The notes under the pieces: generated by a model
Database searches by the model: none
Told to the model about the DNA's origin: nothing
The model's input: the letters and a program-made list of their open reading frames with translations, nothing else
Assembly: GCA_963745075.1 (NCBI GenBank)
Contig: CAVUWV010000010.1
Coordinates: 32,001 to 96,000, forward strand
DNA: 64,000 nucleotides
DNA from: Candidatus Hydrogenedentota bacterium
Lineage (GTDB): Bacteria > Hydrogenedentota > Hydrogenedentia > Hydrogenedentales > SLHB01
Direction: 5' to 3'
Translations under genes and position numbers: made by a program
Part shown: piece after piece, positions 1-19,084 of the stretch
How the letters are laid out: each line of letters starts with the position of its first letter
Numbering within the stretch: the stretch's first letter is position 1

Positions 1-253
1 GTGCGCGCCAATCGGGGCCCGAATCAAAGACGCATTCCGCCGGGACATGCCAATCATGGTGTTCGGCTATATGGGGGAACACAATCTATACATTCCAACG
101 CGCGAGTTGGTTCGCCAAAAGGCCTACCAAGGGATCGTGATCCAGATTCAGTACGCATCGCCAGTGGGCTGGGCGCCGGAAGTCGAGGATGAGATGGTCG
201 ACAACGTGTGCAGCGTCGTGAAGTCCGTCATGGCAAAGCCGGTGACCAACTGA
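1..253 (+). CDS. C-terminal part of a neutral/alkaline ceramidase-like protein (5' truncated by window)
   Basis: Frame is open from base 2: CAPIGARIKDAF...VFGYMGEHNLYIPTRE..AYQG resembles the ceramidase-like C-terminal 'GY...YIPT' motif; stop at 253. Confidence 0.5.
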   Translation, partial: CAPIGARIKDAFRRDMPIMVFGYMGEHNLYIPTRELVRQKAYQGIVIQIQYASPVGWAPEVEDEMVDNVCSVVKSVMAKPVTN

Positions 254-639
254 CCGGGGCGAGATGAAGTCGCGGGCCTTTACGGTTGTTAAGTGGACCA
301 AATCCGTCCCAGTTCGCATTTCTCACCGCCCGAGAGTCCTCGAGTTGAGGATCACGCCGTGGCGTGATGAGAAATGCTTTCGAGAAAAACTGCCACGCCC
401 CGGGCGTGGTTGAGGGAATCTCACACGCGCGCGGTAAACCCAACATGCTCGGACCGACGTGTGAAGGCTCGGGCCGGATTGGGGTTACAGGCCCGATACT
501 TGGAGCGTGTGAGATTTCCGGGCTTGCGGAAATCCATCTTCGGGGCACATCCTAGATACTTCTCCGCCCCCAAACTGGAAGAACGGCTCAGATAGGAAGC
601 GCTTAAACCTCTGGGATGAATTGAGTTGTGGCGGAGAAA

Positions 640-665
640 TAATGGTGGAGGCGGCGGGAATCGAA
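640..665 (-). repeat. Outer copy of tmRNA 3' end (attR-like core)
   Basis: TAATGGTGGAGGCGGCGGGAATCGAA is identical to 15118-15143. Confidence 0.92.
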
Positions 666-858
666 GCCGAAGAAGGGGTGTTTTGGCAACTTATTGAAAA
701 GCAAGAAGATACGACTTAAGACTATGCTGCAGAAGAACTTCGGTGAGTCTCAGGTTTTATCAGAACTTGTCATCCCTGCGCAGGTTTTTGTTTGAAAATG
801 CTCCCGTGGAGATGTGCCCTTCAAGAGGTCTCGTCATCACATTGCCATTCGCGGCGCA

Positions 859-1644
859 TCACAGCAAACGGCCCTTGAGGCTCCTCAGCAGTTCAAACCC
901 TGCGATGAGGCTTTCACCACCGGTGCATCGGGCCAGGCGTGAATAAGACATGGCCACATTCTTGACTCGTGCGTTTGGGAAGTCGGTGCTCTGACACACA
1001 TCCTTGTGAAGGCCCGTATCCTTGTCCAACCAGACAACGATCAACTCTGGGGCCTGCTGTCCATGCCGGAAAAGCTTCTTGTATGCGCTGTTCTCCGACA
1101 GCGTTGCTTCCAGCCAGCTTCCGTCTTCAAGGACAAAGTCGGGATTGTAGAGCCGGTGCGTTCTCAGCTTGAGCCCATTTTTCCCGGCGAAGTCTACATA
1201 CCAAGGATCGGGGTCCCGATGCTCGAATACAGGTTCACGCCGACAGGGTATTTCGAGCAGCATCAGAGCCTCGGCGATAAGGTGCGAGAAGATCCTCCCG
1301 CGCGCGCCGGTGCGCTGAAATGAATTCAAGTCTTGCATGCGACGCTCTTGAAATGCCGCGATGATCGGTTCCCACTTGCGGCGCGCCCTTCGTGACAGAG
1401 GTGAAGCATATCCATCCGGAGTGCGCAATACACCACACCTTTCGTGTTCACTACAAAACAAAACGTAAGCACGGTTCGAGACGCCAATGATGTCGTGATC
1501 GAACAATGCAAACCCGTGCAGGCACGTCTTAATATACCATTCCCCATGCCGTTGGTCATTTCCCCTTGATGTCGTGTGCGGACCGGCCTGGAAACCCGCT
1601 ATGATCCTGGCAAAGCTGACTGAGGCGGCGGCATGTTCGGACAT
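859..1644 (-). CDS. Hypothetical protein with PD-(D/E)XK nuclease-like motif
   Basis: 261 aa ORF; YNPDFVLEDGSWLEAT...YKKL resembles a PD...ExK core. Confidence 0.55.
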   Translation of the reverse strand: MSEHAAASVSFARIIAGFQAGPHTTSRGNDQRHGEWYIKTCLHGFALFDHDIIGVSNRAYVLFCSEHERCGVLRTPDGYASPLSRRARRKWEPIIAAFQERRMQDLNSFQRTGARGRIFSHLIAEALMLLEIPCRREPVFEHRDPDPWYVDFAGKNGLKLRTHRLYNPDFVLEDGSWLEATLSENSAYKKLFRHGQQAPELIVVWLDKDTGLHKDVCQSTDFPNARVKNVAMSYSRLARCTGGESLIAGFELLRSLKGRLL

Positions 1645-1667
1645 GCGGGAAGGATGAATCAGACGAC

Positions 1668-3017
1668 ATGAGCAAACAGCGCAAGAAGGATCCGATAATG
1701 GCGAGCATCGAACGAGCGCTCGACTTCGGCCAGTTCGTATCCTACAAACAAACGTGGGATTTCGTCAGCAACCTGGACCGGATCAAGGATCAGATTGACG
1801 CGCTCGTTGACGAGGGTGACGCGGAACGAACGGTCAGACTCTACGAACTATTCCTTGCGGGTGTATACGAGAAGGCCGAGGAAACCGACGATTCGGGCGG
1901 CGAACTCGGAGCGTTCTTCGAGAGGCTGTTTGTATCTTGGATCATCGCCCGGCAAAAGACCGGATGCGCGGCTGAAGAGACTGTGCTCGAGATCCTCGGC
2001 TGGATAGAGAACGATAACTATGGCTTTTGCCATGGAATCGAAGGGGAGGTGGCGCGAACGCTCAACAGAGAGGGGTTTGCCCTATTCAGAAGCCACTTCC
2101 GGAATCTGTTCGAGAAGGCCTTCGCACCTTTCAAGTGCGAGGCGCCAAGGCGTATCTACGATTATCCCGCTGAGGTGTGCCTGTCCGCCCGTGTGCTCAA
2201 GTCCATCTACATTGCGAAGAGGGATGTGCCCTCCTATGTCGCCCTTTGCGAAATGATGACCGTTTCTCCGAAAGATTGTGAAGAGGTGGGCAACATGCAC
2301 AAGACCAGGCGGCGCTTTGCCGAGGCGCTCGAGTGGGTCGAGCGCGGGCTGTCACTTGAGCATGAACGTCACTGGGGGAATGAGTCTAGCAATTCTCTTG
2401 CCTTCATACGGCGGGAGCTCCTCGAAAAGGTCGGGCGCAAAGAAGAGGCGTTTCAAGTTGCCTGGGAACAGTTCGAAAAACACCCTTGCGAATACGCCTA
2501 CGCGGATCTGATGAAGCACGTGGCCGGGGAAGATCGGGAGCATTGGCACGACAAGGCCATGGAAGCCGCCAAGCGAACTTCGTTGTCTGGGTACATCGAA
2601 ATCTGCGCGAAAACCAAGGAGTGGGATGCCTTGGTGCGCCACGTCGATTCCGTCACACGGGAGGAACTCGAAAGCGTGAGCCACTATGTGACAGAAAAGG
2701 CGGCCAAGGGGCTTGAAAGGCGCCACGCGTTGGCGGCCGCCAAGGTGTATGCCGCCCTCGGCATGCGGATTGTCAAGGAGGGCAAGAGCAAGTATTATCA
2801 ATATGCCCTCGGCCACCTCCGGAACGCGAAGAAGTTCGCGGAAAGGGCCGGCCATACCGAAATGTGGTCATCGTTGATAGAAGAAGTGCGCAAGAATCAC
2901 TCGCGAAAACAAGGTTTCATTCCGGGTTTCGAGGAAATCGCGGCGGGACGGCGGCCGGCTTCCGACTCCTTCGAGAAGAGAGCGAGGAAACGGTGGAAGA
3001 AACAGGTGTCGCAATAG
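1668..3017 (+). CDS. DUF6880-like alpha-helical/TPR protein
   Basis: 449 aa; DDSGGELG motif and helical repeats; C-terminal 'YY.YA...L...H.RK..F' pattern. Confidence 0.7.
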   Translation: MSKQRKKDPIMASIERALDFGQFVSYKQTWDFVSNLDRIKDQIDALVDEGDAERTVRLYELFLAGVYEKAEETDDSGGELGAFFERLFVSWIIARQKTGCAAEETVLEILGWIENDNYGFCHGIEGEVARTLNREGFALFRSHFRNLFEKAFAPFKCEAPRRIYDYPAEVCLSARVLKSIYIAKRDVPSYVALCEMMTVSPKDCEEVGNMHKTRRRFAEALEWVERGLSLEHERHWGNESSNSLAFIRRELLEKVGRKEEAFQVAWEQFEKHPCEYAYADLMKHVAGEDREHWHDKAMEAAKRTSLSGYIEICAKTKEWDALVRHVDSVTREELESVSHYVTEKAAKGLERRHALAAAKVYAALGMRIVKEGKSKYYQYALGHLRNAKKFAERAGHTEMWSSLIEEVRKNHSRKQGFIPGFEEIAAGRRPASDSFEKRARKRWKKQVSQ

Positions 3018-3080
3018 CGCCGGGCTCGACGCGGGAAAGGCGGAAATGAACGTGCCTCCTAACGTTCAGAAGGAAGAGGG

Positions 3081-4298
3081 ATGAAGCGACCACATCAATG
3101 GCAGTTTCGGGCACGCTTCAGAACAAACGCCTATACCTGGCGTGGCACGGCCCTTGCCTCGAAACGCTTGAAGGAAGCCGTCGTGGAGATCACGAATGCG
3201 TCCAAGTCCGACCCTGTGGCCGCCGGGGACGGTTGCGTTGCGCTCATGGAGCGCCTATGGCCCGCGCTTCAAAGCATCGATAGTTCCTCCGGCGCGCTCG
3301 GGAACGCTGTCAACCGGACCCTCCACGACCTGATCCCCATTCTGATCGCCGCCCCCTGCGGCCGGGAGCTTCGCGCAGAATGGATCGAGCGCTTGTATCA
3401 GGCCGTCTGCGACGACGGCGTGCAGTACTTGACACCGGTGGAAGAACGCTGGGGGGAGGTGTGCGTCTTCCCCGAACTCGCCAATGAATGGGCCGAGAGG
3501 ATTCTCCCGCTGCTTCGCGAAGTATGGTCCGCCCGCCGTCCGGGCGCTCACGTGCGCGGCGACACGCTGTGCCTCTCGTGTCTTCTGGAGACCGGGCGCT
3601 ACGTGGAATTGGGCGAAGTGCTCTCGCTGCGCGGCGTTCGTTTCTGGCCGAACGATCAGTTCTTGGCGGAAGCAATGGCACGTGAAGGAAGAATCGACGA
3701 GGCTGTCGCGTACGCCGAAGCCCATCACGACGAACACTACGAGCGTCCCGGGATTATCGCGTTCTGCGAGCGGATTCTTCTGGAATCCGGCCGAGAGGAG
3801 GAGGCCTACCGGAAATTCGGCCTGTTCGCCGTCAACGCAACAACGCATCTGAGCGCGTTCCGGAAGACCGCCGCACAGTATCCCGAAAAGGACCGCCGCC
3901 AAGTCTTGCTGGACCTGATTGAGGCGCGCGGGAACAAGGGGAAGTGGTTCGCCGCCGCGAAAGACGCCGGATTCCTGGACATTGCCCTCGAATGCGCCCA
4001 AACAGGCGACACGGAACCGAAAACGCTGATCCGGGCCGCGCGGGATTTCGAGGAAACGGAGCCTGAATTCGCAGTGAACGTCGCACTCTGTGCGGTTCAA
4101 ATCCTGCTGCGCGGCGGGGGCTATGAACCATCGGCGGTGGACATACAAGAGGCATACGACTACCTGATAGCCGCGGCAAGGCGGTTGGGGCGCGCGGAGT
4201 GGGCGAGAACCGGGTTGGAACACCTGTTGTCCGACACGGAGCAGAACATCGAGCCGCAAATGAAGAAGGTGCTGGAGATGCGCCTTTGCCTGGGCTAG
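3081..4298 (+). CDS. Conserved hypothetical TPR-like protein (WQFRARFR family)
   Basis: 405 aa with RBS; DSSSGALG and GKWFAAAKDAG motifs. Confidence 0.7.
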   Translation: MKRPHQWQFRARFRTNAYTWRGTALASKRLKEAVVEITNASKSDPVAAGDGCVALMERLWPALQSIDSSSGALGNAVNRTLHDLIPILIAAPCGRELRAEWIERLYQAVCDDGVQYLTPVEERWGEVCVFPELANEWAERILPLLREVWSARRPGAHVRGDTLCLSCLLETGRYVELGEVLSLRGVRFWPNDQFLAEAMAREGRIDEAVAYAEAHHDEHYERPGIIAFCERILLESGREEEAYRKFGLFAVNATTHLSAFRKTAAQYPEKDRRQVLLDLIEARGNKGKWFAAAKDAGFLDIALECAQTGDTEPKTLIRAARDFEETEPEFAVNVALCAVQILLRGGGYEPSAVDIQEAYDYLIAAARRLGRAEWARTGLEHLLSDTEQNIEPQMKKVLEMRLCLG

Positions 4299-4702
4299 CT
4301 GTTCGCTTCCCAGACTGTGTACTCTCTCACGGGCCAGTAGTTCTTGTCCTCCTTGGGCGTCACTTCCAGATCGGCCAGCGGGACAACGCCTCTTGCCCTC
4401 CTTTCTCGAACGCTTACGAGAATGCCGAATCGCGATAGGTCGTCATCCATGAGATCGACGACATCCATCGCATGACCAAGTCTGAATGGATCTCTGTCTG
4501 CAACGTCAGTGAAGTAGGCATCATCATCGTCTTCCACGCGCGTGGCCTTGAAAGGAAAGGAGAGATTCTCCCGAAGCCATGCCTTCCAATCGCGGCAGGC
4601 CCATTCTTCGCATTTCAAGTCAAAGGCGTCTTCGCTCCGCGGATGGCACCCGGTATCATCCTCCATCAGATCCCAGGAGTCATCGTAGGGGTTCTCTATC
4701 AT
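4295..4702 (-). CDS. CcbP-like calcium-binding domain protein
   Basis: W..WL.ENLSFPF ... GILV ... PLADLE ... YTVWEAN; GGAGG RBS before ATG at 4702. Confidence 0.7.
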   Translation of the reverse strand: MIENPYDDSWDLMEDDTGCHPRSEDAFDLKCEEWACRDWKAWLRENLSFPFKATRVEDDDDAYFTDVADRDPFRLGHAMDVVDLMDDDLSRFGILVSVRERRARGVVPLADLEVTPKEDKNYWPVREYTVWEANS

Positions 4703-4753
4703 AACTATTTCCTCCGAATTTTCGCAGTGCCCAGCCCGAAGCACTGCGCCGCG

Positions 4754-5686
4754 CTATGTGATTTGCCCACAGCATTTCTTGTACTTCTTGCCGCTTCCGC
4801 AGGGGCAGGGCGCATTCGGTTTGACTCTGGCGGGGCGCTGGGGTGGGAAGGGGGCGGCCTGTTCTATCCGGGGCGTAGGACGCGTTGCGGGCATCGTCCC
4901 CCGTTTGGACTGTTTGGGTTGCTTGAAACAGGCCCACCACTCCATCTCATCGGCCACGTTCTCGATATAGGTATGTCGCCCCTTGCGGAGGTCATCGAGT
5001 ACGGATTCCTTATTCCTTTTCGACGCTCTCTCGACATTCCGAAGCGAGATGAACCATCCGTCGACGAGGCCCTCCTTGAATGCCGCGGTGATATGCTCGG
5101 AAACCTCCTCCGGATGGAGAGCCGTGGCGCAGGCGACCAGTGAATCCCAGGCGTGGGAGTAAGAACGTTCAAGCCTCCCCTCGAAAAGACCCTTGAAGTA
5201 GGCCATGACCTCGCCGCGGCTCTTGTCGCCCTCGGCCACAAGCACCAGCAACGAGTTCAGCGCGGCACTGCGCGCGTATTCGCCAACTTCCCCGTCCTCA
5301 ATCAGTTCCTCGATCGGCCCCGTGTCGCCATCGCACACCGAGGCTAGAACGCGGCAGAGTCCCTCAGTGACAAAATCTCCGGCGAGCGCGTCGAGCAGGT
5401 CCTCTTCTAAGCGCGCGAAACGCACCACCAACGGATAGGCGTGCGCTTCCCTAAACTGGGCCAAGAGGTACATGGCATAGAGGTGCGCGAAATAGGCGCC
5501 ATCCGCGTCTTCGGCCACAATCTCCTTGGCCCTGGCAACCGTATCTTCGAGAATCCGCAGCAGCTCGGGGGTGATCTCCTCACGCGCCTCCACAGCCGCC
5601 TCGACGGCCTTCCTCGGAAACGTGCCAGTGTTCCGTTCAAGCTCTTTCAGGATTTGGGTGATTCCCACCGCTTCACAAGTCCTCAC
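4754..5686 (-). CDS. DUF1186 domain protein with C-terminal SEC-C motif
   Basis: HLYAMYLLAQFRE, GDFVTE, and NAPCPCGSGKKYKKCCG. Confidence 0.85.
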   Translation of the reverse strand: MRTCEAVGITQILKELERNTGTFPRKAVEAAVEAREEITPELLRILEDTVARAKEIVAEDADGAYFAHLYAMYLLAQFREAHAYPLVVRFARLEEDLLDALAGDFVTEGLCRVLASVCDGDTGPIEELIEDGEVGEYARSAALNSLLVLVAEGDKSRGEVMAYFKGLFEGRLERSYSHAWDSLVACATALHPEEVSEHITAAFKEGLVDGWFISLRNVERASKRNKESVLDDLRKGRHTYIENVADEMEWWACFKQPKQSKRGTMPATRPTPRIEQAAPFPPQRPARVKPNAPCPCGSGKKYKKCCGQIT

Positions 5687-5689
5687 GTT

Positions 5690-6370
5690 CTATCGGTTGG
5701 CAAACCATACAGCATAGTCCCGCAACGGCAAGAATGCCGGAGACTCGCGCGGGAACGCCTCGAGTTCGCACAACGGGACGGCCCTCTTTCGCCAACCATG
5801 TTTGACGCGTACGATAACACCCATGAGCTCGTCCACATCATCGACGGCCAACACGCACACTGTGTCGCCATCAGCCAAGGGACCGCACTCCTGGGATTCG
5901 CAAACCTTGGCGTCAAAAGGAAAGGTCAACGTTTTCCCAAGATATTCACTCCATGCCGTAATCACCTCCCACGGATCGTCTGGGTCCAATCCCTCCATAA
6001 CATCGAGAATGCGCCTGCCCTGGGCTCCCATGTCCAGCCAAAGGCTGTTGAAATCCAGAGTTCGCGCGTTTCGTTCGGTATCCGCTTCGCTATCGCGCGG
6101 TTGAGCGCGCTCCACTTCTTCCATCCCAAGATACATCGCCCTACAGTCGAGGCCTTGTGCTACGCCGCCGGCCAAGAAATCCTTCGGCATGGCGGCCACG
6201 GTAACGCTGTCCCACTTGGCGCCGACCATTGGCTCATCGTCCCATAGTTCGACGCAGAATAACCTTCCCTTCCACCCCGCAAGCGACAGACCCTCGAAGT
6301 CGGGGCACATGACGCCCTGCTTGACACGGACACAATCACCCTCGTGAAAACACTCGCTCTCTGCGGCCAT
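5690..6370 (-). CDS. CcbP-like protein with N-terminal SH3-like beta domain
   Basis: GDCVRVK...GWKG N-terminus; W..YL...LTFPF...PLCELE...YAVWFAN C-terminus. Confidence 0.7.
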   Translation of the reverse strand: MAAESECFHEGDCVRVKQGVMCPDFEGLSLAGWKGRLFCVELWDDEPMVGAKWDSVTVAAMPKDFLAGGVAQGLDCRAMYLGMEEVERAQPRDSEADTERNARTLDFNSLWLDMGAQGRRILDVMEGLDPDDPWEVITAWSEYLGKTLTFPFDAKVCESQECGPLADGDTVCVLAVDDVDELMGVIVRVKHGWRKRAVPLCELEAFPRESPAFLPLRDYAVWFANR

Positions 6371-6381
6371 GTTCCCCTCCA

Positions 6382-6630
6382 CTATTTCAAGTCTGCAAAT
6401 TCCTCGCGTGCAAGCAAGACCCGGATGCTGCGCGGCTGTCCGGGAATCCGCCCAATGAATCCGTTCTTCTCCAGCGTCACCACCATCTGATGCACACTCG
6501 GCGCGCTAACGTTGAAATACCGTTGCATGTCGGCTTCTGCCGGCGGCCGGCCAGTCACTTTGGTATAGTAGTGGATAAAGGCCAGATACTGGCCCTGTTT
6601 CTCGGTGGGTTTGGATTCCATTCCCTTCAC
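6382..6630 (-). CDS. LexA-type DNA-binding winged-helix protein (no protease domain)
   Basis: TEKQGQYLAFI...RPPAEADM...SVHQMVVTLEKNGFI.R.PGQPRSI. Confidence 0.85.
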   Translation of the reverse strand: MKGMESKPTEKQGQYLAFIHYYTKVTGRPPAEADMQRYFNVSAPSVHQMVVTLEKNGFIGRIPGQPRSIRVLLAREEFADLK

Positions 6631-6692
6631 ACTCCCTTATTCATCTCTCGGGCGCATCGTAGATCGACAGGAATCTCATGGAACTACTCGGA

Positions 6693-7997
6693 CTACTCCG
6701 GCATGTTGAGCAGGAACCGCCATGCCGGCACGACCTCGATGGTTCCGCCCTCAACGTCGAACTGTTCCTCCTTATTGCGGGTCACGATTGTCCCTGACCC
6801 GACGCCCAATTCCGCCATCGCTTCGCTCAAAGCAACGGTCTCTCTGTTTCGTGTCTGCGGCTCGGCGAGCGACTCGCACACCTGTACCAGGAGCGGGGAA
6901 CGGCCACGCGATGGGACGATGAAATCGACCTCCTTGCCGGTCTTCGTCCCATAGTAGTAGATGTCTGGTTGGCTGCGCCGAAGCGCCGTGAATACAAGGT
7001 TCTTCAGAAGATGCCCGGAGTTGATGAGCACGCCCGACGATACCGAAGTGACCATGGCGTGATCGATGCAATATACCTTCTTCGGGTTCGTGTTGCGGCG
7101 GGCGAGCGAGGCGTCGAATATCTGCACGGTGAACAGGAAGTAGGCGTCCTCGAACCACTCCAGGAAATCCGATACGGCCGTCCTTGGCGCATGATGCCCC
7201 AGTGATTGTAGATATCCGGTTAAGCGGTTGATGGAATAGACTGATGCCGTGTTGTCCACCAGCCAATGAGCCAGATCGCTCACCGCTTTCGGGTGCGCAA
7301 TGTCGTGACGCTCCACAAGGTCACGAAACAGAACTGCCTGGAAGTATTCTTGGTGCGTTTTAATCCTCAAGTTCTCACTGAGGCCGATGACCTCGGGAAA
7401 ACCACCGGTTGCCCAATATTCCTCAAAGGCCTTCTGGATGAGAAGCCGCTTCTTCGTTGACAGACCTCCCTCGCTGTCCATTCCTCGGCTGTCAAGAAAC
7501 TCACGGAAGGAGAACGGAAACAACTCCCAAGACAACGCTCGCCCGCGCATCTGCGTAGCGATCTCTTTCGACAGCATTCTGGTCGAGGATCCCGTGAGAT
7601 AGACCTCGCATTTCTCCGTGCGAATCATGCGATCGACAAAAGGTTCCCAACCCGGAACGGCTTGTATCTCGTCGAAAAAACAGTAAACCGTTTCTTCACC
7701 CTTCTTTTCCGGGTAGATGGAGTAATAGGATTCGGCGATCAGAGCTAGATTCTCATGCTGCAGATTGTGGAGGCGGTCGTCGAAGAAGTTCAGATACAGA
7801 ATATTCTGTCGCGAAACCTCGCTGTCCATCAGCCCCTGAATAAGCTGGAACAGGAAGGTGGACTTCCCGCTCCGGCGCACGCCGATACAAACGGTGGCTT
7901 TCCCATGAACCGGCTCTACATGCAAACGGCGGGGCACCCCCGTTTCCAATTGGGCCTCCTGAAAGTCCAGGATGATGCTCTTTATCGTCTCCATCAT
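6693..7997 (-). CDS. AAA+ ATP-binding protein (AAA_14 + DUF4143)
   Basis: GVRRSGKS Walker A, FFDEIQ Walker B, LTGSS, GGFPE, EVDF..VQVC. Confidence 0.9.
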   Translation of the reverse strand: MMETIKSIILDFQEAQLETGVPRRLHVEPVHGKATVCIGVRRSGKSTFLFQLIQGLMDSEVSRQNILYLNFFDDRLHNLQHENLALIAESYYSIYPEKKGEETVYCFFDEIQAVPGWEPFVDRMIRTEKCEVYLTGSSTRMLSKEIATQMRGRALSWELFPFSFREFLDSRGMDSEGGLSTKKRLLIQKAFEEYWATGGFPEVIGLSENLRIKTHQEYFQAVLFRDLVERHDIAHPKAVSDLAHWLVDNTASVYSINRLTGYLQSLGHHAPRTAVSDFLEWFEDAYFLFTVQIFDASLARRNTNPKKVYCIDHAMVTSVSSGVLINSGHLLKNLVFTALRRSQPDIYYYGTKTGKEVDFIVPSRGRSPLLVQVCESLAEPQTRNRETVALSEAMAELGVGSGTIVTRNKEEQFDVEGGTIEVVPAWRFLLNMPE

Positions 7998-8575
7998 TTG
8001 ACTAATCCTGTCTCAGAAGTTTCCGATATGGTACCTAACTGCGAGTGAATATGCGCAGTTTACCCTGGCGTTGTCAAGACAGGATGCCGGATTCGACCTC
8101 GCCACGTTCCCCCCGCTACTTGTCGTCTTGCAGTCCTTGTCGCAGGCTTGATCCGAGGCGCAAACAAAGGGACGCGGGAATCAGTACGGATCGCGGTATG
8201 ATCTTGTAGCGAGTGTGAATTCCAGTTCGGCACTCTGCAACGCTTCCGCTTCACTGCCCAAGTGGCGCTCTTTGGCTCCGGCGACGAGACCACGTTGAAA
8301 GACAGAGCGTAAGACTCAGAACGGCAATTGGTTAGAGCGTGCAGGCGCAGAAGTGATAACTGAAAACGGCATCTGGATCATCGGATTCCTCAAGGATAAG
8401 GATAGTGATCGACGGCATGCTTACGCATGCTCACCTCGCACATGCGCGGCAGTCAACACCTAGAAATGCTCCCATTTTGGTCCCGCCACGGAAATGGCGT
8501 ATCAATGGGATGTGCAACGACCGCATTTTCAGCCAAGGCTGCTTGGGCTTTGTAGACGAATAATAATAGTTAACT

Positions 8576-8863
8576 ATGGTGAAGGCGGCGGGAATCGAAC
8601 CCTCTCTGGAAATCGATACATTTGCTGCACTTTTCCTACAGAACCCATACACAAACCACCCATCGCAAACAGCTTGCGAGGCGCTGATCGACACTTTCCG
8701 TACACTTCCCGAACAGAACCGCGACACTTTCTTGCGGCTCGTTTGTGCAATATATGTGCAATGGAATGCGCTACCGCCCTCAATCCAAAACATGATCAAT
8801 GACTGGACCTTATTGCCAGAGGAGGTCAAGGAACGCGTTGAAAGAATGGTGGAGCGGCAGTAG
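8576..8863 (+). CDS. Small hypothetical protein starting inside the att core
   Basis: 95 aa ORF with an amphipathic helical C-terminus (WTLLPEEVKERVERMV); may be partly spurious. Confidence 0.35.
   Translation: MVKAAGIEPSLEIDTFAALFLQNPYTNHPSQTACEALIDTFRTLPEQNRDTFLRLVCAIYVQWNALPPSIQNMINDWTLLPEEVKERVERMVERQ
8577..8602 (-). repeat. Middle copy of tmRNA 3' end (att core between the islets)
   Basis: TGGTGAAGGCGGCGGGAATCGAACCC matches 15121-15146 at 25/26. Confidence 0.92.
8744..8764. promoter_or_regulatory. Putative arm-type integrase binding site pair, islet B left end
   Basis: TGTGCAATATATGTGCAATGG, TGTGCAAT repeated at an 11-bp period; 20/21 identical to 14966-14986. Confidence 0.6.
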
Positions 8864-9003
8864 GTGGGGTATTGAATGAGCGAATCCTACCTGCTGAGAA
8901 TGAAGTAAGATGACGAGTTGGTGCATCATTGCCTTGAAAAGAAGCCGGGGATCTGTGTGAGTGCCTCCGCGATGAACTGGGATAGACTGATGGAACGGAA
9001 GAA

Positions 9004-10470
9004 TTGAACACGCGCGAACTCAAGAACCTGGTCGCAGACGGAGAGTCGGAGCGCCTTGAACTGAAGCGCTCCACGGGCCAGAGAACCGAAGCCGCAAAAA
9101 GTGTTTGTGCCATGCTCAATGGCATGGGTGGCTTCGTCGTGTTCGGCGTGACCGACCGGCGAGAAATCGCTGGCCAACAGGTCACAGCGAAAACCCTTGA
9201 AGATATTGCGGCTGAACTGCGTCGGATTGAACCTCCTGCATTTCCCGACATCGAGACGATTACGGTCAAGAAGGATCACGATGTGATTATCTTGAAGGTC
9301 CCAGGCAGCGCGGGACTGTATCACTACGACGGACGTCCCTATGTCCGCCAAGGTCCGACCACGATCGTCATGCCGCGCGAAGAATATGAAAGAAGGCTCG
9401 TGGAACGTCTGCACGCCACACGTCGATGGGAAAATGAACCTGTTGCCGAGGGCGTATCCGTGAAGGACCTCGATAAGCAGGAGATTCAGAACACTCTGGA
9501 CACCGCAATCAGTCTGGGGAGATTGGAGCCCACGGGGCGTCGAGACGTGGAGTCAATTCTTCGTGGATTGGATCTCATCCGCGAAGGCAGACTCCTAAAC
9601 GCGGCCGTTGCCCTCTATGGAAAGAGCAATAGACTCAAAACGCTTTATCCGCAGTTCAGCATAAGGCTTGCCCGTTTTCGTGGCGTGAATCGCCTTGCAG
9701 AATTTTCGGATAACCGGCAGTATTGGGGTCATGCATTCTCGCTCTTGAGCCGGGCTCAGTCTTTTCTCATGGATCACGTACCAATCGCCGGGAGGGTCGT
9801 TTCGGGCAAGATGGTCCGCGAGGATCAGCCGCTCTATCCGCTTCGGGCAACGCGCGAGGCGCTTGCGAACGCTTTCTGCCACCGTGATTACACGGTACCT
9901 GGCGGTGCGGTCGCTGTGGCCATGTACGATGACCACCTCGAGATTACCAACCCTGGCGCGCTTCACTTTGGAATTACCCCTGAGAAGCTGAAAGTGCCCC
10001 ACGAGTCCAAACCGTGGAATCCAATCATCGCGAACGTCTTCTACCGGGCCGGAATTATCGAGCGATGGGGTAGCGGCACGCTCAATATCATCGACTGGTG
10101 CACGGAGAACGGCAATCCCGCGCCGGAATGGCAGGAGCTGGCGGACTCCGTTTTCGTGACATTCCTTCCGGCGGCGCTGCTGGCGAGCCCAGGAAAGGAT
10201 GAGAATAGGGACCAAGTTGGCACCAAGTTGGCACCAAGTAGGCACCAAGTGGCCGTCTTGTATAAGTGCCTCAATAACACTGGTTTATACGAACTGATGA
10301 AGGCTGCTGGACGCACAGACCGCACCAAGTTCAGGAACCAAGTCCTTAAGCCACTCCTTGAAGCCGGACTTGTTGAAATGACGATTCCAGACAAGCCGCG
10401 GAGCAGCAAGCAACAATATCGCTTAACGGACGCCGGGAGGCAATATCTTGCCGACTTGGACAAGGCCTGA
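9004..10470 (+). CDS. Schlafen/AlbA_2 - HATPase_c_4 - HTH protein (RecG-C-like ATP-binding)
   Basis: GESERLELK...CAMLNGMGG.VVFGVTD; REALANAFCHRDY; NPIIA..F...IERWGSG; C-terminal PDKPRSSKQQYRLT. Confidence 0.9.
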   Translation: MNTRELKNLVADGESERLELKRSTGQRTEAAKSVCAMLNGMGGFVVFGVTDRREIAGQQVTAKTLEDIAAELRRIEPPAFPDIETITVKKDHDVIILKVPGSAGLYHYDGRPYVRQGPTTIVMPREEYERRLVERLHATRRWENEPVAEGVSVKDLDKQEIQNTLDTAISLGRLEPTGRRDVESILRGLDLIREGRLLNAAVALYGKSNRLKTLYPQFSIRLARFRGVNRLAEFSDNRQYWGHAFSLLSRAQSFLMDHVPIAGRVVSGKMVREDQPLYPLRATREALANAFCHRDYTVPGGAVAVAMYDDHLEITNPGALHFGITPEKLKVPHESKPWNPIIANVFYRAGIIERWGSGTLNIIDWCTENGNPAPEWQELADSVFVTFLPAALLASPGKDENRDQVGTKLAPSRHQVAVLYKCLNNTGLYELMKAAGRTDRTKFRNQVLKPLLEAGLVEMTIPDKPRSSKQQYRLTDAGRQYLADLDKA

Positions 10471-10565
10471 ATGTGCTTCTCGACCGGCAATTGGTCCAGT
10501 GCGTCGGGAGTAAAATATGGCTTTCCAACATGGCCCCAATGTATTGCAGGCGAACTCGGACTAAC

Positions 10566-13061
10566 ATGTCGCACGATGACGAACGGCTCCGCGAGGACCT
10601 CGCGAAAGCAAAAGAGGAAATCTGCCGACTCCAAGAGGAAAACGGTCGGCTCAAGGCTATCCTGGGCGCATTCTCCGTTAAGTCCGGCAATGCCATAAAG
10701 CTACCAAAGGCCAACGTTCAGCCTGAGCCGAGACCACCGTCAACAAAGCCGCCTACGCCACCGCGCGATTCCCAGATGATGGCTGATCAGCGAATTCAAC
10801 TCTTTCGTGCACTGTTTCGTGGCAGGGATGATGTGTACGCCGTGCGCTGGGAGAATAGGAAGGGGAAATCCGGCTATTCGCCCGCCTGTGCCCACGAGTG
10901 GGACCCGATGATCTGCAAGAAACCCGGAGGCAGGTGCACGGACTGCAGTTATCTTCCGCTCACGGACGATGTCGCTCGCGCCCATCTTCTCGGGCAGAAA
11001 ACCATCGGCATTTATCCCATGCTGAGCGATGAAACGTGCTGGTTCCTTGCCGCCGACTTTGATAAGGAGGGTTGGCAGGAAGACGCTCGAACATACCTGG
11101 CGACGGGCCGGACAATGCATGTGCCGGTGTACCTGGAAAGTTCGCGCTCGGGAAATGGCGCCCATGCATGGATATTCTTCGAGCAAGCCGTGCCCGCGGC
11201 AGCGGCTCGGAAGCTGGGCAGTGCAATTTTGACGGCCTCGATGGAGAAACGTCACCAAGTCGGACTGAATTCTTACGATCGGCTATTTCCAAACCAAGAT
11301 ACGATGCCCAAAGGCGGGTTTGGAAACCTAATTGCAGCCCCACTGCAACGAACACCGAGAGACGACGGCAACTCCGTATTCCTTAACGATGAATTCGAGC
11401 CTCACTCCGACCAATGGAGCTTTCTCGCCGCGGTTAAACGTCTCTCCATCGGTGCACTCAAACGGATTGTCCGAGATGCCGAACAGCGAAACATCATCGT
11501 GGGTGTTCGCCTGCCGATTGTCGATGAAGCACTCGGGGAAGATCCTTGGACACTGCCCCCGTCGCGGAAACGTGCTGAACCTCCAATTCTTGGCCCCTTG
11601 CCGAAGGATTTGACTGTCGTCCGGAGCAATCTACTCTATTTGGAGATGCGTTCACTGAATCCTTCGTTGACCAACCGGGTCATTCGGCTGGCGGCGTTTC
11701 AGAATCCCGAATTCTATGCCGCCCAGGCGATGCGCCTTTCGACGTTTGGAAAGCCACGGGTAATTGGTTGTGCGGAAGAGTTTCCCGACCACATCGGGAT
11801 TCCGCGTGGGTGCCTCGAAGATCTGAAAGACCTTTTTGAGTCGCACGCGGTTGAGTTCAAAATCAAAGACGAGCGCCTGACGGGAACACCTGTGGCGTTC
11901 TCATTCCACGGCCAACTCAGTAGCGAGCAACAGTCTGCGGCCGAGGAGTTGGTTAAACACGATGATGGTGTCCTCGTAGCGCCTCCCGGCTTCGGCAAGA
12001 CCGTGCTGGCGGCATGGATCATCGCGCAAAGAAAGGTGAATACACTCGTTCTTGTACATCGTACGGCGCTCTTGGAGCAATGGCGTGAACAACTCGCCCT
12101 CTTTCTAAACGTTAATAGACAGTCGATCGGAACGATAGGGAGTGGACGGCGCAAAGCTACGGCTCTTCTGGACGTCGCAATGATGCAGACTCTCCAGAGG
12201 AAGGGACAGGTAGCTGATCTCGTGGCTGACTATGGCCTCGTCATTGCAGACGAATGTCACCACCTTTCGGCCTTCACATTCGAGCGCATCATGAGGGAGG
12301 TCAAGGCGAAGTACGTGCTCGGCCTGACGGCAACGCCAATTCGAAAAGACGGGCACCACCCCATCATATTCATGCAATGTGGTCCGATCAGGCATCGCAT
12401 CAGCCCTAAACTTGCCGCGGCGCGTCGGCCATTTCAACATGTGGTCATTCCCCGAGTGACAAGACTGGTCGTAAACAAACCAGAACCCTCGATTCATGAC
12501 GTTTACCACGCTCTCACCCACGACGAGACACGAAATCGCCAAATCATCGACGACATCGCGCGGGCGGTCAATTCGGGGCGCTCGCCGATTGTGCTTACCG
12601 AGCGTGTCGACCATCTCACAACGTTGGGAGCCATGTTACGAACGCGAGCAGTGACGCAGAAGATCCTCATCTTAAGAGGTGGAATGAAGTCCAGTGAACG
12701 GACCGATGCTCAAGAAGCTCTCTCAACAGATAGCGCCAATGAAACTATCGTGATCCTTGCGACGGGGAAATTCATCGGCGAGGGGTTCGATTATTCCCGA
12801 CTCGACACACTTTTTCTCGCCATGCCCATATCATGGCGGGGCACACTGGAACAATACGTTGGCCGTCTACACCGATTGCACGAAAGCAAGCGCGAGGTGC
12901 GGGTGTACGATTACGTGGACAGCAACGTATCGATTCTCACGAGGATGTACGCAAGGCGACTTCGTGGGTATCGGGCGATGGGGTATACCATTCAAACTCA
13001 TGAAGAACAGTTGACGCTTCTGCCCGCGCCCCAAGACTTTCCAGACTTGGAACAGAATTGA
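10566..13061 (+). CDS. TOTE-type archaeo-eukaryotic primase fused to SF2 (DEAD/DEAH) helicase
   Basis: LFRGRDDVYA, AADFD, SRSGNGAHAWIFF, YDRLFPNQD..PKGGFGNLIA; APPGFGKT, DECH, GLTATP, QYVGRLHR. Confidence 0.9.
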   Translation: MSHDDERLREDLAKAKEEICRLQEENGRLKAILGAFSVKSGNAIKLPKANVQPEPRPPSTKPPTPPRDSQMMADQRIQLFRALFRGRDDVYAVRWENRKGKSGYSPACAHEWDPMICKKPGGRCTDCSYLPLTDDVARAHLLGQKTIGIYPMLSDETCWFLAADFDKEGWQEDARTYLATGRTMHVPVYLESSRSGNGAHAWIFFEQAVPAAAARKLGSAILTASMEKRHQVGLNSYDRLFPNQDTMPKGGFGNLIAAPLQRTPRDDGNSVFLNDEFEPHSDQWSFLAAVKRLSIGALKRIVRDAEQRNIIVGVRLPIVDEALGEDPWTLPPSRKRAEPPILGPLPKDLTVVRSNLLYLEMRSLNPSLTNRVIRLAAFQNPEFYAAQAMRLSTFGKPRVIGCAEEFPDHIGIPRGCLEDLKDLFESHAVEFKIKDERLTGTPVAFSFHGQLSSEQQSAAEELVKHDDGVLVAPPGFGKTVLAAWIIAQRKVNTLVLVHRTALLEQWREQLALFLNVNRQSIGTIGSGRRKATALLDVAMMQTLQRKGQVADLVADYGLVIADECHHLSAFTFERIMREVKAKYVLGLTATPIRKDGHHPIIFMQCGPIRHRISPKLAAARRPFQHVVIPRVTRLVVNKPEPSIHDVYHALTHDETRNRQIIDDIARAVNSGRSPIVLTERVDHLTTLGAMLRTRAVTQKILILRGGMKSSERTDAQEALSTDSANETIVILATGKFIGEGFDYSRLDTLFLAMPISWRGTLEQYVGRLHRLHESKREVRVYDYVDSNVSILTRMYARRLRGYRAMGYTIQTHEEQLTLLPAPQDFPDLEQN

Positions 13062-13072
13062 GAAAGGGTCGT

Positions 13073-13489
13073 ATGTCCATGAAACACAGAGCCTGGGCTT
13101 GGGGCCCAACAAAACCCTCGAAAGTCCCGGAATCGGTGCGGGTAGATTTGAGTGCGCGGGCGCAGGCGCTAGTGGAGGCGGAACTCAAGCCGCGGCATGT
13201 GAAACCACCATCGATCGATTCCGACCTCAACTACATCGTGGATATTTCGACAAAATGGCGCGGGCGGTTCTTCTACTTTGTTTCAGAATATGCGTGCCCG
13301 GGGCCGAACGCGCTCTCGCCCTATTTTGAGACAGGCTTTGCCCGGCTCGAGTACCAAAGAGATGGCCGTTTCAGCCTGGCATTCATGCGGCACACGGGCC
13401 AATGGTGGCAGGTCTACACGGACTTAACGGTGGACGACGCATTAAACCAGATTCGCGAGGATGCATTTTTTCAACCGTGGGGTGATTGA
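13073..13489 (+). CDS. Conserved hypothetical protein (DUF3024-like)
   Basis: KWRGRFFYF...FARLEY...FSLAFMRHTGQW. Confidence 0.65.
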   Translation: MSMKHRAWAWGPTKPSKVPESVRVDLSARAQALVEAELKPRHVKPPSIDSDLNYIVDISTKWRGRFFYFVSEYACPGPNALSPYFETGFARLEYQRDGRFSLAFMRHTGQWWQVYTDLTVDDALNQIREDAFFQPWGD

Positions 13490-13592
13490 ACCGTTAACCA
13501 ATGAAGGCAGAAGAAGCGAAAGGTCCGGGTCCGGCCGGTCCGCCATCGCATCGGAATTCTGATCCCCAGCAAACGCCCGTTAGGCTGGTGTC

Positions 13593-14750
13593 TCAGCCAA
13601 TGAGATTCGCTTTTCGGATTCTGTCCAGAAGGGTAGGCTTTCGTGCCTGCTCGCGATATAGGGCTTCGATGCGTGACGAGAACGTTTTTCGTTGGCCTGT
13701 CATTGCGGCTACTTCATGAAGATCGTGAAGAAGCGAGACCGCCTCGTCGTACCGCTTTGGCTGTTTTGTGGCGACCAGCGCGTCCACCTTGGACCAAAGG
13801 GTATTCTCTTTGCCAATGAGCGATTCGAGGTGCTTCTTGCGTTTTTCGGCCTGCTCTCGTTCGCGCTTGGCGTTCTCTTGCGCCCGCTTTTTAGCCTCCC
13901 TCCGCTGTCTATCGTTGGCAATCGATTCGGCCCGCTCGACAAGCTGCATGACACGACGCCGTTCGTTCTCCTTCACGTTGCGGTCGGACTGTGTGCCGCC
14001 ACGTAACTCGTGTAAAGCGCGCTGCCTTAGCTCATCGCCAACCTGCGAATTCCTATCTTGAAGCAGTGTCACGATCACGTTGTCTTTTTCTTCTGACGGC
14101 AGTTTGGCCACCCATCCGGAAATCTCTGCTCGCGACGAAGTCGAGGTTGACTGCTCTTTACTATGCTCAGCGGCCACTGAGATCAAATCGTCGTCAATAC
14201 GAAGAAAATCCACGAGGCCCCGAAGTGGCGCGCTCAATTCTCCCAACCCGGAAGGCACGGGCGGCTCAGTGGTATCGCCATCCAACTCGCCCGCTTGAAG
14301 GGCCAGCAGCCATCCGAGGTAGAGGCAGCGGTAATCGCCGTGCATGAGGTCTGACCGAAGCGCCGTGAGCGAAGCCAACCACCCCTCCCCGTCTTCCCAC
14401 TCGCCAACTTCATCTTCCGAGTCGAAGAAAAGGATGACGTGTTCGCCCTTCATATGGAACGAAAAACTTTCGCTAGCACAGTATTGTGACACCAATTTGG
14501 GGTCGAGCAGCCGCTTCGGAACACGCAGCATAAACCAGCGGCTTCCCCAATTGGTCACGTAAAGAAAGGCGTCGAAATACTTCTCCATCCATTTGACTGG
14601 GTCGCCCTTGAAGTTGCCCCAGTCGTATTCGTTAACAAAGCTGGTAGGCGTGATCCGCGCACGGGAGGAATATGATCGCAACTCATCCATCTGCGCACGA
14701 GTCAGGGGGCGGTCTAATGCCTGGAACTCATAGTACTGGTACTCGCTCAT
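13593..14750 (-). CDS. Conserved hypothetical protein (MSEYQYYEF family)
   Basis: MSEYQYYEFQALDRPLT...SSRA.IT...YFDAFLY..NWG; C-terminal coiled coil. Confidence 0.8.
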   Translation of the reverse strand: MSEYQYYEFQALDRPLTRAQMDELRSYSSRARITPTSFVNEYDWGNFKGDPVKWMEKYFDAFLYVTNWGSRWFMLRVPKRLLDPKLVSQYCASESFSFHMKGEHVILFFDSEDEVGEWEDGEGWLASLTALRSDLMHGDYRCLYLGWLLALQAGELDGDTTEPPVPSGLGELSAPLRGLVDFLRIDDDLISVAAEHSKEQSTSTSSRAEISGWVAKLPSEEKDNVIVTLLQDRNSQVGDELRQRALHELRGGTQSDRNVKENERRRVMQLVERAESIANDRQRREAKKRAQENAKREREQAEKRKKHLESLIGKENTLWSKVDALVATKQPKRYDEAVSLLHDLHEVAAMTGQRKTFSSRIEALYREQARKPTLLDRIRKANLIG

Positions 14751-14965
14751 TGTTGTGATGACTCCGGCGAATTGCACGTTACCGACTTAGTGCTGGGGCG
14801 TCAACGTCCGGTCTGCCGTTTGCTCTTTCCAATGTTGAGGGGCGCATCCTTAGTCCGGCGATGATTCAGTTTATATCAACGGTTCCGTGAGCACGTATCG
14901 GATTTCGCAAAGACACCCATTTCCCCTCGTGGCGGCGGGATTACACACCAACTTAGAAAATGAAG

Positions 14966-14986
14966 TGTGCAATATGTGTGCAATGG
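14966..14986. promoter_or_regulatory. Putative arm-type integrase binding site pair, islet B right end
   Basis: TGTGCAATATGTGTGCAATGG, about 135 bp from the tmRNA 3' end. Confidence 0.6.
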
Positions 14987-15120
14987 GGTTCGGTGGCACA
15001 ATCCGCTGTCTGTGTAAGTTGTTGGCCAACAACTGCTTCGGGAGTGTGCAAGCCGTTACTGGCGGCGGGGTTAGTCCTGACGCCAAAATCATCGTAAGCA
15101 ATTGCTACTAAATAACTTAA

Positions 15121-15478
15121 TGGTGGAGGCGGCGGGAATCGAACCCGCGTCCGAAAGTGCATCCCTGTGAGTATCTACGTGTGTAGCCCGTCCTTTAGGA
15201 TTCGCCGCCGTAGAGCGCGTCGGGCTCGCTTTCCACGGTCGCTAGGCGGGGTCGATACTCTCCGCCGAAGTCCCCGCCGGACTCCGGCATCGAGGCCCGC
15301 TGTCGTCGCCTTAGCCCCCTAGCAGGCGGTCGGAGGTAAGACGCGCTACCCTAAATTAGGCAGCGAGTGCCAATGGTTCGTTGGCATTTGTTTGGTAATC
15401 GGCTTTTTACGAGGCCGGCCGATTAACCTCGACACGCAACTCACGCTTCTTCACTCCCGTCGAAACCATGTCGCCCCC
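15121..15478 (-). ncRNA. ssrA: tmRNA; tag peptide (A)ANEPLALAA*
   Basis: 5' GGGGGCGACATGGTTTCGAC; 3' GGGTTCGATTCCCGCCGCCTCCACCA; internal GCCAACGAACCATTGGCACTCGCTGCCTAA. Confidence 0.97.
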
Positions 15479-16657: not shown

Positions 16658-16937
16658 GAACATCCCCCTTGATCCCCCTTCCAAGGGGGAGCCGACAAAA
16701 GTCGCCAAAGGCCCGGTTTGTGCAAAAGCGGTCCGGGAACGGCAAGGACTTGCGCGGTACCCAAGGACTATACATCGACTTTTGTCGGTCCTGTCTTCAA
16801 AGGGGGGAATGTCTCGCAACGCTTTGCGTTTCGTTCAGACGTGTCAGAGCCTCGCATCGAAGCTCACCGCGGCACACACGTCCAAAAACGTTACGACGCG
16901 CAATTCCCCCTTTGAAGGGGGATCAAGGGGGATGTTC
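16658..16937. repeat. Inverted doublet of CCCCCTT/AAGGGGG REP-like palindromes
   Basis: GAACATCCCCCTTGATCCCCCTTCCAAGGGGGAG (16658-16691) and inverted copy 16904-16937; partial copy about 16795-16809. Confidence 0.85.
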
Positions 16938-16962
16938 TTTCCATTTACTACATCTGCGCGCG

Positions 16963-19040: not shown

Positions 19041-19084
19041 ACCTACGAAACATCCCCTGGCAAAAGCGATGGGGCCATCCCGAA

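What the first reader, a model, noticed from the sequence alone, without database searches (positions are those of the whole stretch)
640..15478. Tandem array of two integrase-less islets stacked at the tmRNA 3' end
Seen: the tmRNA 3' end occurs three times (15121-15146, 8577-8602, 640-665), splitting the region into units of about 6.5 and 7.9 kb. No ORF in either unit has tyrosine (R-H-R-Y) or serine recombinase motifs. The gene beyond the outer copy looks like an ordinary chromosomal gene, so the array appears complete. Known: tmRNA is a frequent tyrosine-integrase target; identity starting at the T-arm fits T-loop crossover; tandem islands normally each carry their own int. Inference: these are non-autonomous cargo cassettes mobilised in trans, making ssrA an integron-like landing pad for defence/conflict modules.
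Basis: partly seen in the sequence, partly recalled or inferred. Interest (0 to 1): 0.85.

Follow-up and report, generated by a model that had tools for sequence, protein, structure and literature searches.

The report
Stranded islets stacked behind tmRNA
Three small blocks of foreign DNA sit one behind another after this bacterium's tmRNA gene, and each keeps docking sequences but lacks the enzyme that inserted it; this is a real but already described kind of hitch-hiking mobile DNA.

Summary
The repeats are real but the array is incomplete as reported: a fourth tmRNA 3'-end copy lies 4,975 bp beyond the window. There are three units (6.5, 7.9, 5.0 kb) plus a 190-bp stub before fur-katG; the 'chromosomal' gene is unit-3 cargo. 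No recombinase gene or remnant was found in the array. Each unit keeps its own type of arm-site-like repeat (A, B, C), increasingly damaged with distance from ssrA. Relatives carry the same arms around different cargo; 10 of 12 closed units in 133 genomes lack a tyrosine integrase. Candidate cognate integrases sit at ssrA in other relatives, not here. Near-identical integrase-free units occur in hosts with divergent tmRNAs (99% versus 83%), so they moved recently, whether in cis or in trans is unresolved. Verdict: tandem accretion of cis-mobilizable elements (CIMEs), as published for Dehalococcoides ssrA. It is not an integron, and cargo is defence-like or metabolic. The scan reported similar arrays on other DNA before.

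The parts
15121..15478 (-). tmRNA gene (ssrA); its last 26 nt are the target (attB core, restored copy)
   Evidence: ARAGORN; Rfam RF00023
14966..14983 (-). Unit 1 ssrA-proximal arm repeat, type A (TTGCACA-n4-TTGCACA), intact; putative integrase arm-type site
   Evidence: this pattern (up to 1 mismatch) occurs only twice in the genome, both in unit 1. Function inferred.
13593..14777 (-). Unit 1 cargo: 394-aa hypothetical protein, also in units of G019 and G132
   Evidence: no Pfam, PADLOC or NCBIfam family over cut-off; unnamed Atlas clusters at 0.96; homologues
13058..13489 (+). Unit 1 cargo: DUF3024 protein
   Evidence: PF11225 E 1.5e-18
10473..13061 (+). Unit 1 cargo: AEP-TOTE primase fused to SF2 helicase (conflict-system-type)
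   Evidence: PF22548 E 1.4e-94, PF04851; PADLOC PrimPol E 2.5e-91
9004..10470 (+). Unit 1 cargo: Schlafen/AlbA_2 + RecG-C + Fic-like C-terminal protein
   Evidence: PF04326, PF13749, PF21247
8744..8761 (-). Unit 1 distal arm repeat, type A, intact; lies in a ~190-bp end conserved in G002, G003, G012, G112
8576..8602 (-). Copy 2 of the ssrA 3' end (junction of units 1 and 2), with one C>T change in the acceptor-stem part
8467..8484 (-). Unit 2 proximal arm repeat, type B (consensus GGGAGCA-n4-GGGAGCA), one substitution
6693..7997 (-). Unit 2 cargo: AAA_14 + DUF4143 ATPase (PADLOC candidate PDC-S01)
   Evidence: E 4.6e-103; 86-87% DNA identity to G019 and G132 units
4295..6630 (-). Unit 2 cargo: LexA-type HTH protein, two CcbP-domain proteins, DUF1186-SEC-C protein
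   Evidence: Pfam
1668..4298 (+). Unit 2 cargo: DUF6880 protein (449 aa) and a 405-aa hypothetical protein
   Evidence: PF21810 E 6e-20; no family for the 405-aa protein
859..1644 (-). Unit 2 cargo: 261-aa hypothetical protein, weak PD-(D/E)XK nuclease lead only
   Evidence: no Pfam hit; Atlas best 0.89, PDDEXK_11 cluster 0.85
795..811 (-). Unit 2 distal arm, type B, only one of the two repeats left (11 bp shorter than in seven relatives' arms)
   Evidence: alignment
640..665 (-). Copy 3 of the ssrA 3' end (junction of units 2 and 3), exact
559..574 (-). Unit 3 proximal arm, type C, only one of the two repeats left compared with the integrase-bearing element of G004
   Evidence: alignment; tblastn
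1..253 (+). End of unit 3 cargo (520-aa ceramidase-like gene). Unit 3 continues outside the window to copy 4 at G000:C10:27669-27690; it holds a PIG-L deacetylase, a ceramidase-like gene split over two frames and an intact type-C distal repeat. A ~190-bp type-C stub and fur-katG follow.

Best explanation
This is a site-specific accretion array of cis-mobilizable elements (CIMEs) at ssrA. SHOWN: four same-strand copies of the ssrA 3' end bound three units and a stub. Each unit has its own pair of short 11-bp-period direct repeats 90-200 bp inside both ends and no recombinase. INFERRED: three different tyrosine-integrase systems (arm types A, B, C) recombined at the 7-bp T-loop. Each arrival restored ssrA and pushed earlier residents outward. 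The units derive from integrase-bearing islands or ICEs by internal deletion and cargo swapping, and kept only their att arms. They move when a cognate helper visits the cell, most simply by integrating in tandem, excising and transferring as a composite, after which the helper is lost. In this genome the helpers are gone and the array is decaying outward, so it is now largely stranded; unit 1 alone has both arms intact.
For: Arm types recur around different cargo in other genera: A in G003, G012, G112, G002; B in G018, G019, G020, G021, G132; C in G004. Integrases abut the same arm types at ssrA in relatives. Type C: G004. Type B: G021, whose integrase ATG lies 4 nt after the repeat. Type A repeat: beside a fragment in G008, and a variant beside an intact gene in G115. 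Decay gradient: unit 1 arms intact; unit 2 has one substitution and one lost repeat; unit 3 has one lost repeat and a frame-split gene; then a 190-bp stub. This matches 'most decayed elements are most distant from the target' (PMC7563491, passages). Integrase fragments at ssrA in G008, G020, G026, G035 and G109 show the decay route. In G021 a B-arm end with TrwB/HerA-like and primase genes lies in tandem with a 20-kb integrase-free unit, the ICE-CIME layout. Displaced 3' ends have mutated in G000, G012, G019, G020 and G132.
Against: Integrase-free units often sit directly at ssrA (G000, G003, G012, G019, G105, G132), the position of the latest arrival, whereas streptococcal CIMEs are always distal. 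Several have both arms perfect and were transferred recently, which fits independent trans-mobilisation equally well. The G021 integrase and the ICE-like end are on different contigs, so their linkage is inferred. The type-A integrase assignment rests on the 18-bp repeat alone; the flanking arm sequences do not align. Closed units are biased toward small fixed elements, because large active islands break metagenome assemblies.
Confidence: 0.65

Rival explanations
1. The units are a stable family of non-autonomous mini-integrative elements (two att arms plus exchangeable cargo). They are excised and integrated one at a time, in trans, by a visiting helper's integrase without being physically joined to it.
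For: G019 unit 1 and metagenome contig L193 are 99.1% identical over 2,580 bp starting at the core, while their tmRNAs are 82.6% identical. The G018 and G019 units are 91.5-92.9% identical over 4 kb (tmRNA 86.7%), with both arms and no integrase. G000 unit 1 and G003 unit 1 are 87.5% identical over 4,478 bp against 79-81% for flanking fur and katG. 10 of 12 closed units lack a tyrosine integrase. Proximal position is common.
Against: No excised circle seen; no run holds this strain. L193 is a 2.9-kb unbinned contig: the rest of its element is unseen, and a chimeric join at the shared core is possible. Cis-mobilisation followed by precise helper excision gives the same picture. The arms of units 2 and 3 here are damaged, and excising unit 1 alone would leave ssrA with a G2-U pair in the acceptor stem.
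Confidence: 0.25
2. The units are purely fossil: each lost its integrase in place long ago and has been inherited vertically, never moving in integrase-free form.
For: Damaged arms and mutated displaced 3' ends; integrase fragments at ssrA in five relatives.
Against: Element identity exceeds host-gene identity in four host pairs. Congeners differ at the locus: G005 has an empty site, G004 an integrase-bearing element, G003 one unit, G000 three. No integrase remnant was found in G000.
Confidence: 0.07
3. An integron-like system: one host-encoded recombinase (XerC/D, or the tRNA-Pro or tRNA-Met island integrase) captures and shuffles cassettes at ssrA.
For: Variable unit number and order among relatives and a shared cargo pool across arm types.
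Against: Three unrelated arm systems occur in one array. The genome's four tyrosine recombinases are XerD, a XerC-like protein and two island integrases tied to tRNA-Pro and tRNA-Met. No A, B or C repeat lies on those two island contigs. No attC-like motif at 4 of 4 junctions. Units are multi-gene with genes in both orientations.
Confidence: 0.03

Closest known systems
Dehalococcoides ssrA genomic islands without an integration module (McMurdie et al. 2011, PMC3146451; passages read)
   Same: Tandem islands downstream of ssrA bounded by a ~20-bp direct repeat of its 3' end; varying number per strain; 15 islands lack the integration module and were proposed to be CIMEs moved by accretion or now fixed.
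   Different: Helpers there are serine recombinases (DsiA/DsiB) and cargo is mainly rdhA. Here the candidate helpers are tyrosine integrases of two families, with three distinguishable arm-repeat types, and cargo is conflict-like or metabolic.
Cis-mobilizable elements (CIMEs, microCIMEs) of streptococci (PMC7563491 and PMC5704250, passages read; Pavlovic 2004 and Bellanger 2011 seen only as references there)
   Same: No recombinase or transfer genes, att sites kept, 1.2-13 kb, tandem at a gene 3' end, decay increasing away from the target, gene-less stubs of 130-220 bp (the 190-bp stub here).
   Different: There the target-proximal element is an ICE, IME or MGI. Here every unit lacks an integrase and no helper is left in the assembly, and integrase-free units often sit directly at ssrA.
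Islander-type tDNA islands (PMC4383910, passages) and Pseudomonas tmRNA islands I23/I44/I55 (PMC12595487, passages)
   Same: Tyrosine-integrase insertion at tmRNA, T-loop/junction subsite, displaced 3' fragment marks the end, defence-like cargo.
   Different: Those elements encode their own integrase. Islander filters out integrase-free candidates by design, which may explain the impression that tandem members always carry one.
Integrons (defining features recalled, not from a call)
   Same: An array of exchangeable modules behind one fixed site.
   Different: No IntI, no attC-like sites, multi-gene bidirectional units, several recombination systems.

Membership tests
CIME / tandem accretion array | Element flanked by att direct repeats of the target gene end | tested here: met
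   four same-strand copies starting at the T-loop
CIME / tandem accretion array | No integrase, relaxase, coupling protein or T4SS gene | tested here: met
   Pfam on 18 ORFs from units 1-2 and 4 ORFs of unit 3; six-frame PF00589, PF07508, PF00239; tblastn and HMM
CIME / tandem accretion array | Derived from an integrase-bearing ICE/IME by deletion | tested here: inconclusive
   Same arm types abut integrases in G004 (C) and G021 (B); type A only by the repeat. No full-length parent of any G000 unit was found.
CIME / tandem accretion array | att sites still functional; transfer by cis-mobilisation with a tandem ICE/IME | not testable with these tools
   No reads of this strain. Cross-genus near-identity shows movement but not the route.
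CIME / tandem accretion array | Most decayed element farthest from the target gene | tested here: met
   arm and gene damage grows from unit 1 to the stub
Integron | Integron integrase IntI next to attI | tested here: not met
   No recombinase on the contig. TIGR02249 is below cut-off for the 3 of 4 genome tyrosine recombinases scanned; the fourth lies beside tRNA-Met.
Integron | attC sites (RYYYAAC...GTTRRRY hairpins) between cassettes | tested here: not met
   0 motif pairs within 300 bp of 4 of 4 junctions (simple pattern, not a covariance model)
IME / MGI / Islander island | Encodes its own integrase | tested here: not met
Dehalococcoides ssrA-GI (DsiB type) | Serine recombinase integration module next to attL | tested here: not met
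   no PF00239 hit in the genome; the single PF07508 hit is on another contig
Anti-phage defence island | Complete, validated defence systems as cargo | tested here: inconclusive
   13 proteins scanned (12 from the window): strong hits only to candidate PDC-S01 and PrimPol; AEP-TOTE domain by Pfam; unit 3 is metabolic

The most novel reading that the evidence does not exclude
In this lineage, integrase-free 4-9 kb mini-elements built from two conserved att arms and swappable cargo form a self-standing parasite class. They spread between genera one unit at a time by borrowing the tyrosine integrase of rare visiting helpers in trans; the B-type integrase was found in only 1 of 133 genomes. Several arm 'dialects' run in parallel at one ssrA T-loop, and cargo modules are shuffled between dialects.
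Probability: 0.25. Interest if true: 0.6.

Novelty: new member of a known kind. Interest (0 to 1): 0.3.

Why it matters
As a CIME array it is a clean, well-resolved example in an uncultured lineage, showing that integrase-dependent island finders miss most closed ssrA units there (10 of 12). It also pairs candidate integrases with their arm repeats, which makes an open question testable: do integrase-free islands move only in cis with a helper, or also in trans? If trans-mobilisation were shown, att arms alone would be enough for cross-genus spread of defence and metabolic genes.

Tried and rejected
Excision test by reads: none of 13 listed runs holds the strain (largest share of words 0.14). 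Four runs laid as contigs on the array showed no joint closing a unit into a circle; this is no evidence either way. One 9.1-kb contig (run X6) carries a unit-1-like element at about 92% identity with both ssrA ends. It resembles the G003 version, so I do not count it as independent.

Exact pattern scans: the type-A end gave 0 loci in genome contigs. The type-B proximal end gave 0 in viral contigs, 1 in metagenome contigs and 4 loci in genome contigs; the type-B distal end gave 6 loci in genome contigs. The G021 integrase has no close relative in genome contigs (21 loci; apart from itself, one 32-residue match at 59% and the rest 24-31%) and none in viral contigs.

Hidden novel recombinase among the hypothetical ORFs: rejected, because no gene is shared by all units of an arm type. 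G132 unit 1 holds only two carbohydrate-enzyme-like genes, and G012 unit 1 shares only its ends with G000 unit 1. The 299-aa HTH protein of G018/G019 units is absent from G000 unit 2 and from the G132 units.

Host integrases as helpers: rejected (see rivals).

Rows left out of the 12-unit count: G005 C1 (two copies on opposite strands), G035 (outer copy has 2 mismatches; holds integrase fragments), G018 (one core truncated to 9 nt; no integrase) and all units cut by contig ends. Serine recombinases were searched genome-wide in G000, G003, G012, G018, G019 and G132 (none on array contigs), only by ORF scan in G020 and G021, and not in G105. G018 C97 shows what looks by eye like the tail of a serine-recombinase island at ssrA, but searches gave no hit on that contig, so this is unconfirmed.

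Literature: six searches. No listed paper concerns Hydrogenedentota ssrA islands (15 of 308 listed, 0 occurrences of the name). Searches returned nothing. Subscription papers are not covered, and I read no supplements. No structure or complex prediction was run.


Full report
1. Observation. The window is G000:C10:32001-96000. tmRNA lies at 15121-15478 on the minus strand. Its 3' end recurs at 8576-8602 (one mismatch) and 640-665 (exact), 6,544 and 7,934 bp apart, far beyond chance (3e-5 expected exact copies). A genome-wide search found a fourth copy at C10:27669-27690, 4,975 bp beyond the window's outer copy, and no other. The array therefore has three units (6.5, 7.9, 5.0 kb). After copy 4 come about 190 bp and then fur-katG, which is the conserved flank in congeners G003 and G005. 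Those congeners have a DUF4838 gene right after the last ssrA end; G000 lacks it here (best hit elsewhere 33%), so a deletion is inferred. Identity of all three displaced copies begins at or 3 nt before the T-loop TTCGATT, as expected for a T-loop crossover subsite (PMC4383910, passages).

2. No recombinase. PF00589 in six frames gives 4 hits in the genome: XerD over cut-off and a XerC-like protein just under it, the integrase of an 8.5-kb tRNA-Pro island, and one beside tRNA-Met. PF07508 hits one short frame on C11 and PF00239 nothing. tblastn of C10:15001-48000 with 89 ORFs, among them ssrA integrases of relatives, matched only frames reading through att DNA, and an HMM built from 57 sequences found nothing on C10. 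The assembly is 89.7% complete.

3. Cargo. Unit 1: AlbA_2/RecG-C/Fic-C protein, AEP-TOTE primase-helicase, DUF3024 and a 394-aa unknown. Unit 2: AAA_14-DUF4143 ATPase (PADLOC candidate PDC-S01), LexA-type HTH, two CcbP-domain proteins, DUF1186-SEC-C, DUF6880 and two unknowns. Unit 3: PIG-L deacetylase and two ceramidase-like genes, one split over two frames. Cargo is thus conflict-like in units 1-2 and metabolic in unit 3. One search scanned 134 proteins, a selection from the 173 ORFs plus five others; short and flanking ORFs were left out.

4. Arms. Each unit carries a short direct repeat of 11-bp period 90-200 bp inside its ends: type A (TTGCACA) in unit 1, B (GGGAGCA) in unit 2, C (TTGGGGGCG) in unit 3. 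With up to one mismatch, A occurs twice in the genome and C once, all in the array; B occurs twice, once in the array. Reading them as integrase arm-type sites is inference from position, spacing and recalled lambda-family att anatomy. Unit 1 has both repeats intact. Unit 2 has one substitution proximally and has lost one 11-bp repeat distally. Unit 3 has lost one repeat proximally. The stub is a further decayed type-C start. Copy 2 carries a C>T change that would turn the tmRNA G2-C pair into G2-U if unit 1 alone excised.

5. Relatives. Four of six record titles read Candidatus Hydrogenedentota (two read uncultured Nitrospiraceae); I infer the former lineage. Of 133 genomes of the order, 112 hold the 20-mer. 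Twelve units are closed by two same-strand copies on one contig: G000 x3, G003, G012, G019 x2, G020, G021, G105, G132 x2. One has an intact tyrosine integrase (G019 unit 2), one a fragment (G020) and ten none. This count is biased toward small fixed units. Type-A ends were found in 5 of 133 genomes and type-B ends in 5 of 133 by DNA search, with G021 added by pattern. Cargo differs widely: two carbohydrate-enzyme-like genes in G132 unit 1, nitric-oxide reductase genes in G021, a ParB-methylase and radical SAM genes in G018 and G019. Cargo also crosses arm types; the TOTE helicase is in a type-A unit here and a type-B unit in G132. Congeners differ: G005 empty, G003 one type-A unit, G004 an integrase-bearing type-C element.

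6. Helpers. A 396-aa-frame integrase starts 4 nt after a type-B repeat at ssrA in G021; it was found in 1 of 133 genomes at E 1e-30. A second family is in 19 of 133 genomes at E 1e-25, at ssrA and at several tRNAs. It abuts a type-C arm in G004, an identical type-A repeat in G008 (fragment) and a variant in G115. Neither family is in G000, G003, G012 or G018 at those thresholds. Broken copies lie at ssrA in G008, G020, G026, G035 and G109.

7. Movement. G019 unit 1 and metagenome contig L193 share 99.1% over 2,580 bp from the core onward, with tmRNAs only 82.6% alike; L193 is short and could be chimeric. The G018 unit matches G019 unit 1 at 91.5-92.9% over 4 kb and 85% over 1.3 kb (tmRNA 86.7%). 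G000 unit 2 is a mosaic: 90.8% to G018 over 2,251 bp and 86.0% to G132 over 1,962 bp (tmRNA 83.9% and 80.4%, the latter on the 3' part only). G000 unit 1 matches G003 unit 1 at 87.5% over 4,478 bp against 79-81% for fur and katG, though tmRNA is 93%. Integrase-free units, or their immediate parents, thus moved between hosts more recently than the hosts diverged. No read data could test excision.

8. Mechanism. Best reading (0.65): successive T-loop integrations by three integrase systems, loss of the integrases, and further spread by cis-mobilisation with transient helpers, leaving a stranded array that decays outward. Trans-mobilisation of single units (0.25) fits the proximal position of many integrase-free units and their intact arms, and cannot be separated from cis by sequence. 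Pure fossils (0.07) conflict with section 7. An integron-like host system (0.03) fails on IntI, attC and the three arm types.

9. Known kinds and verdict. PMC3146451 describes tandem ssrA islands in Dehalococcoides, 15 without an integration module, and calls them possible CIMEs (passages). PMC7563491 and PMC5704250 define CIMEs and microCIMEs, their sizes and the outward decay rule (passages). The array meets the testable CIME features and fails those of integrons, IMEs and Islander islands. Earlier notes of this scan report similar arrays in other genomes (unchecked); none was found for look-alikes of this stretch. Novelty: new member of a known kind. What is new is the lineage, the three coexisting arm types with candidate integrases, and the cross-genus near-identity. 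Interest 0.3.

Noticed in passing
G000:C8:264496-265171 (-), outside the window: Nine near-identical 75-bp units, each starting with the first 24 nt of tRNA-Asn(GTT) followed by a GC hairpin, lie head to tail directly upstream of the real tRNA-Asn gene. Unexplained; could be a tandem amplification or a tRNA-like repeat array.
   Followed up: no
G000:C1:~46620, ~78330, ~83630 (+) and C4:14242-15795: Three copies of the tRNA-Met 3' half (from the anticodon arm) on C1 bound units of 31.7 and 5.3 kb, with no PF00589 hit on C1. The tRNA-Met gene with an adjacent 481-aa integrase frame is on C4. Probably a second accretion array in the same genome.
   Followed up: partly
window 311-534: A ~210-bp dispersed repeat with 19 further BLAST matches (68-86% identity) on nine contigs sits in unit 3 between the arm and the cargo.
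   Followed up: no
window 10208-10250: Four 11-bp tandem repeats inside the AlbA_2/RecG-C/Fic-C gene, just before the Fic-like C-terminal domain; a change in copy number would shift the frame. A related contig has 10 extra bases about 220 bp downstream.
   Followed up: no
window 8792-8863 (+): A 23-codon frame (MINDWTLLPEEVKERVERMVERQ) next to the type-A distal arm, with similar DNA in G003; possibly a remnant of an element gene.
   Followed up: no
L144:4598-4617 (G018:C22): An internal extra type-B arm repeat at a cargo-module boundary suggests that units fuse or exchange cargo at the arm repeat.
   Followed up: partly
L047:11615-13228 versus L040:2-949: Integrases of one family (54% identical) read through the ssrA 3'-end core in opposite directions: with ssrA at the distal end of G019 unit 2, against ssrA at the proximal end in G004.
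   Followed up: no
window 16658-16939 and 19082-19251: Four copies of a ~35-bp sequence arranged as two inverted pairs (REP/MITE-like) upstream of ssrA.
   Followed up: no
L060:10082-12923 (G035): Patatin plus DncV-like nucleotidyltransferase (CBASS-like) genes inside a 14-kb ssrA unit with integrase fragments.
   Followed up: no
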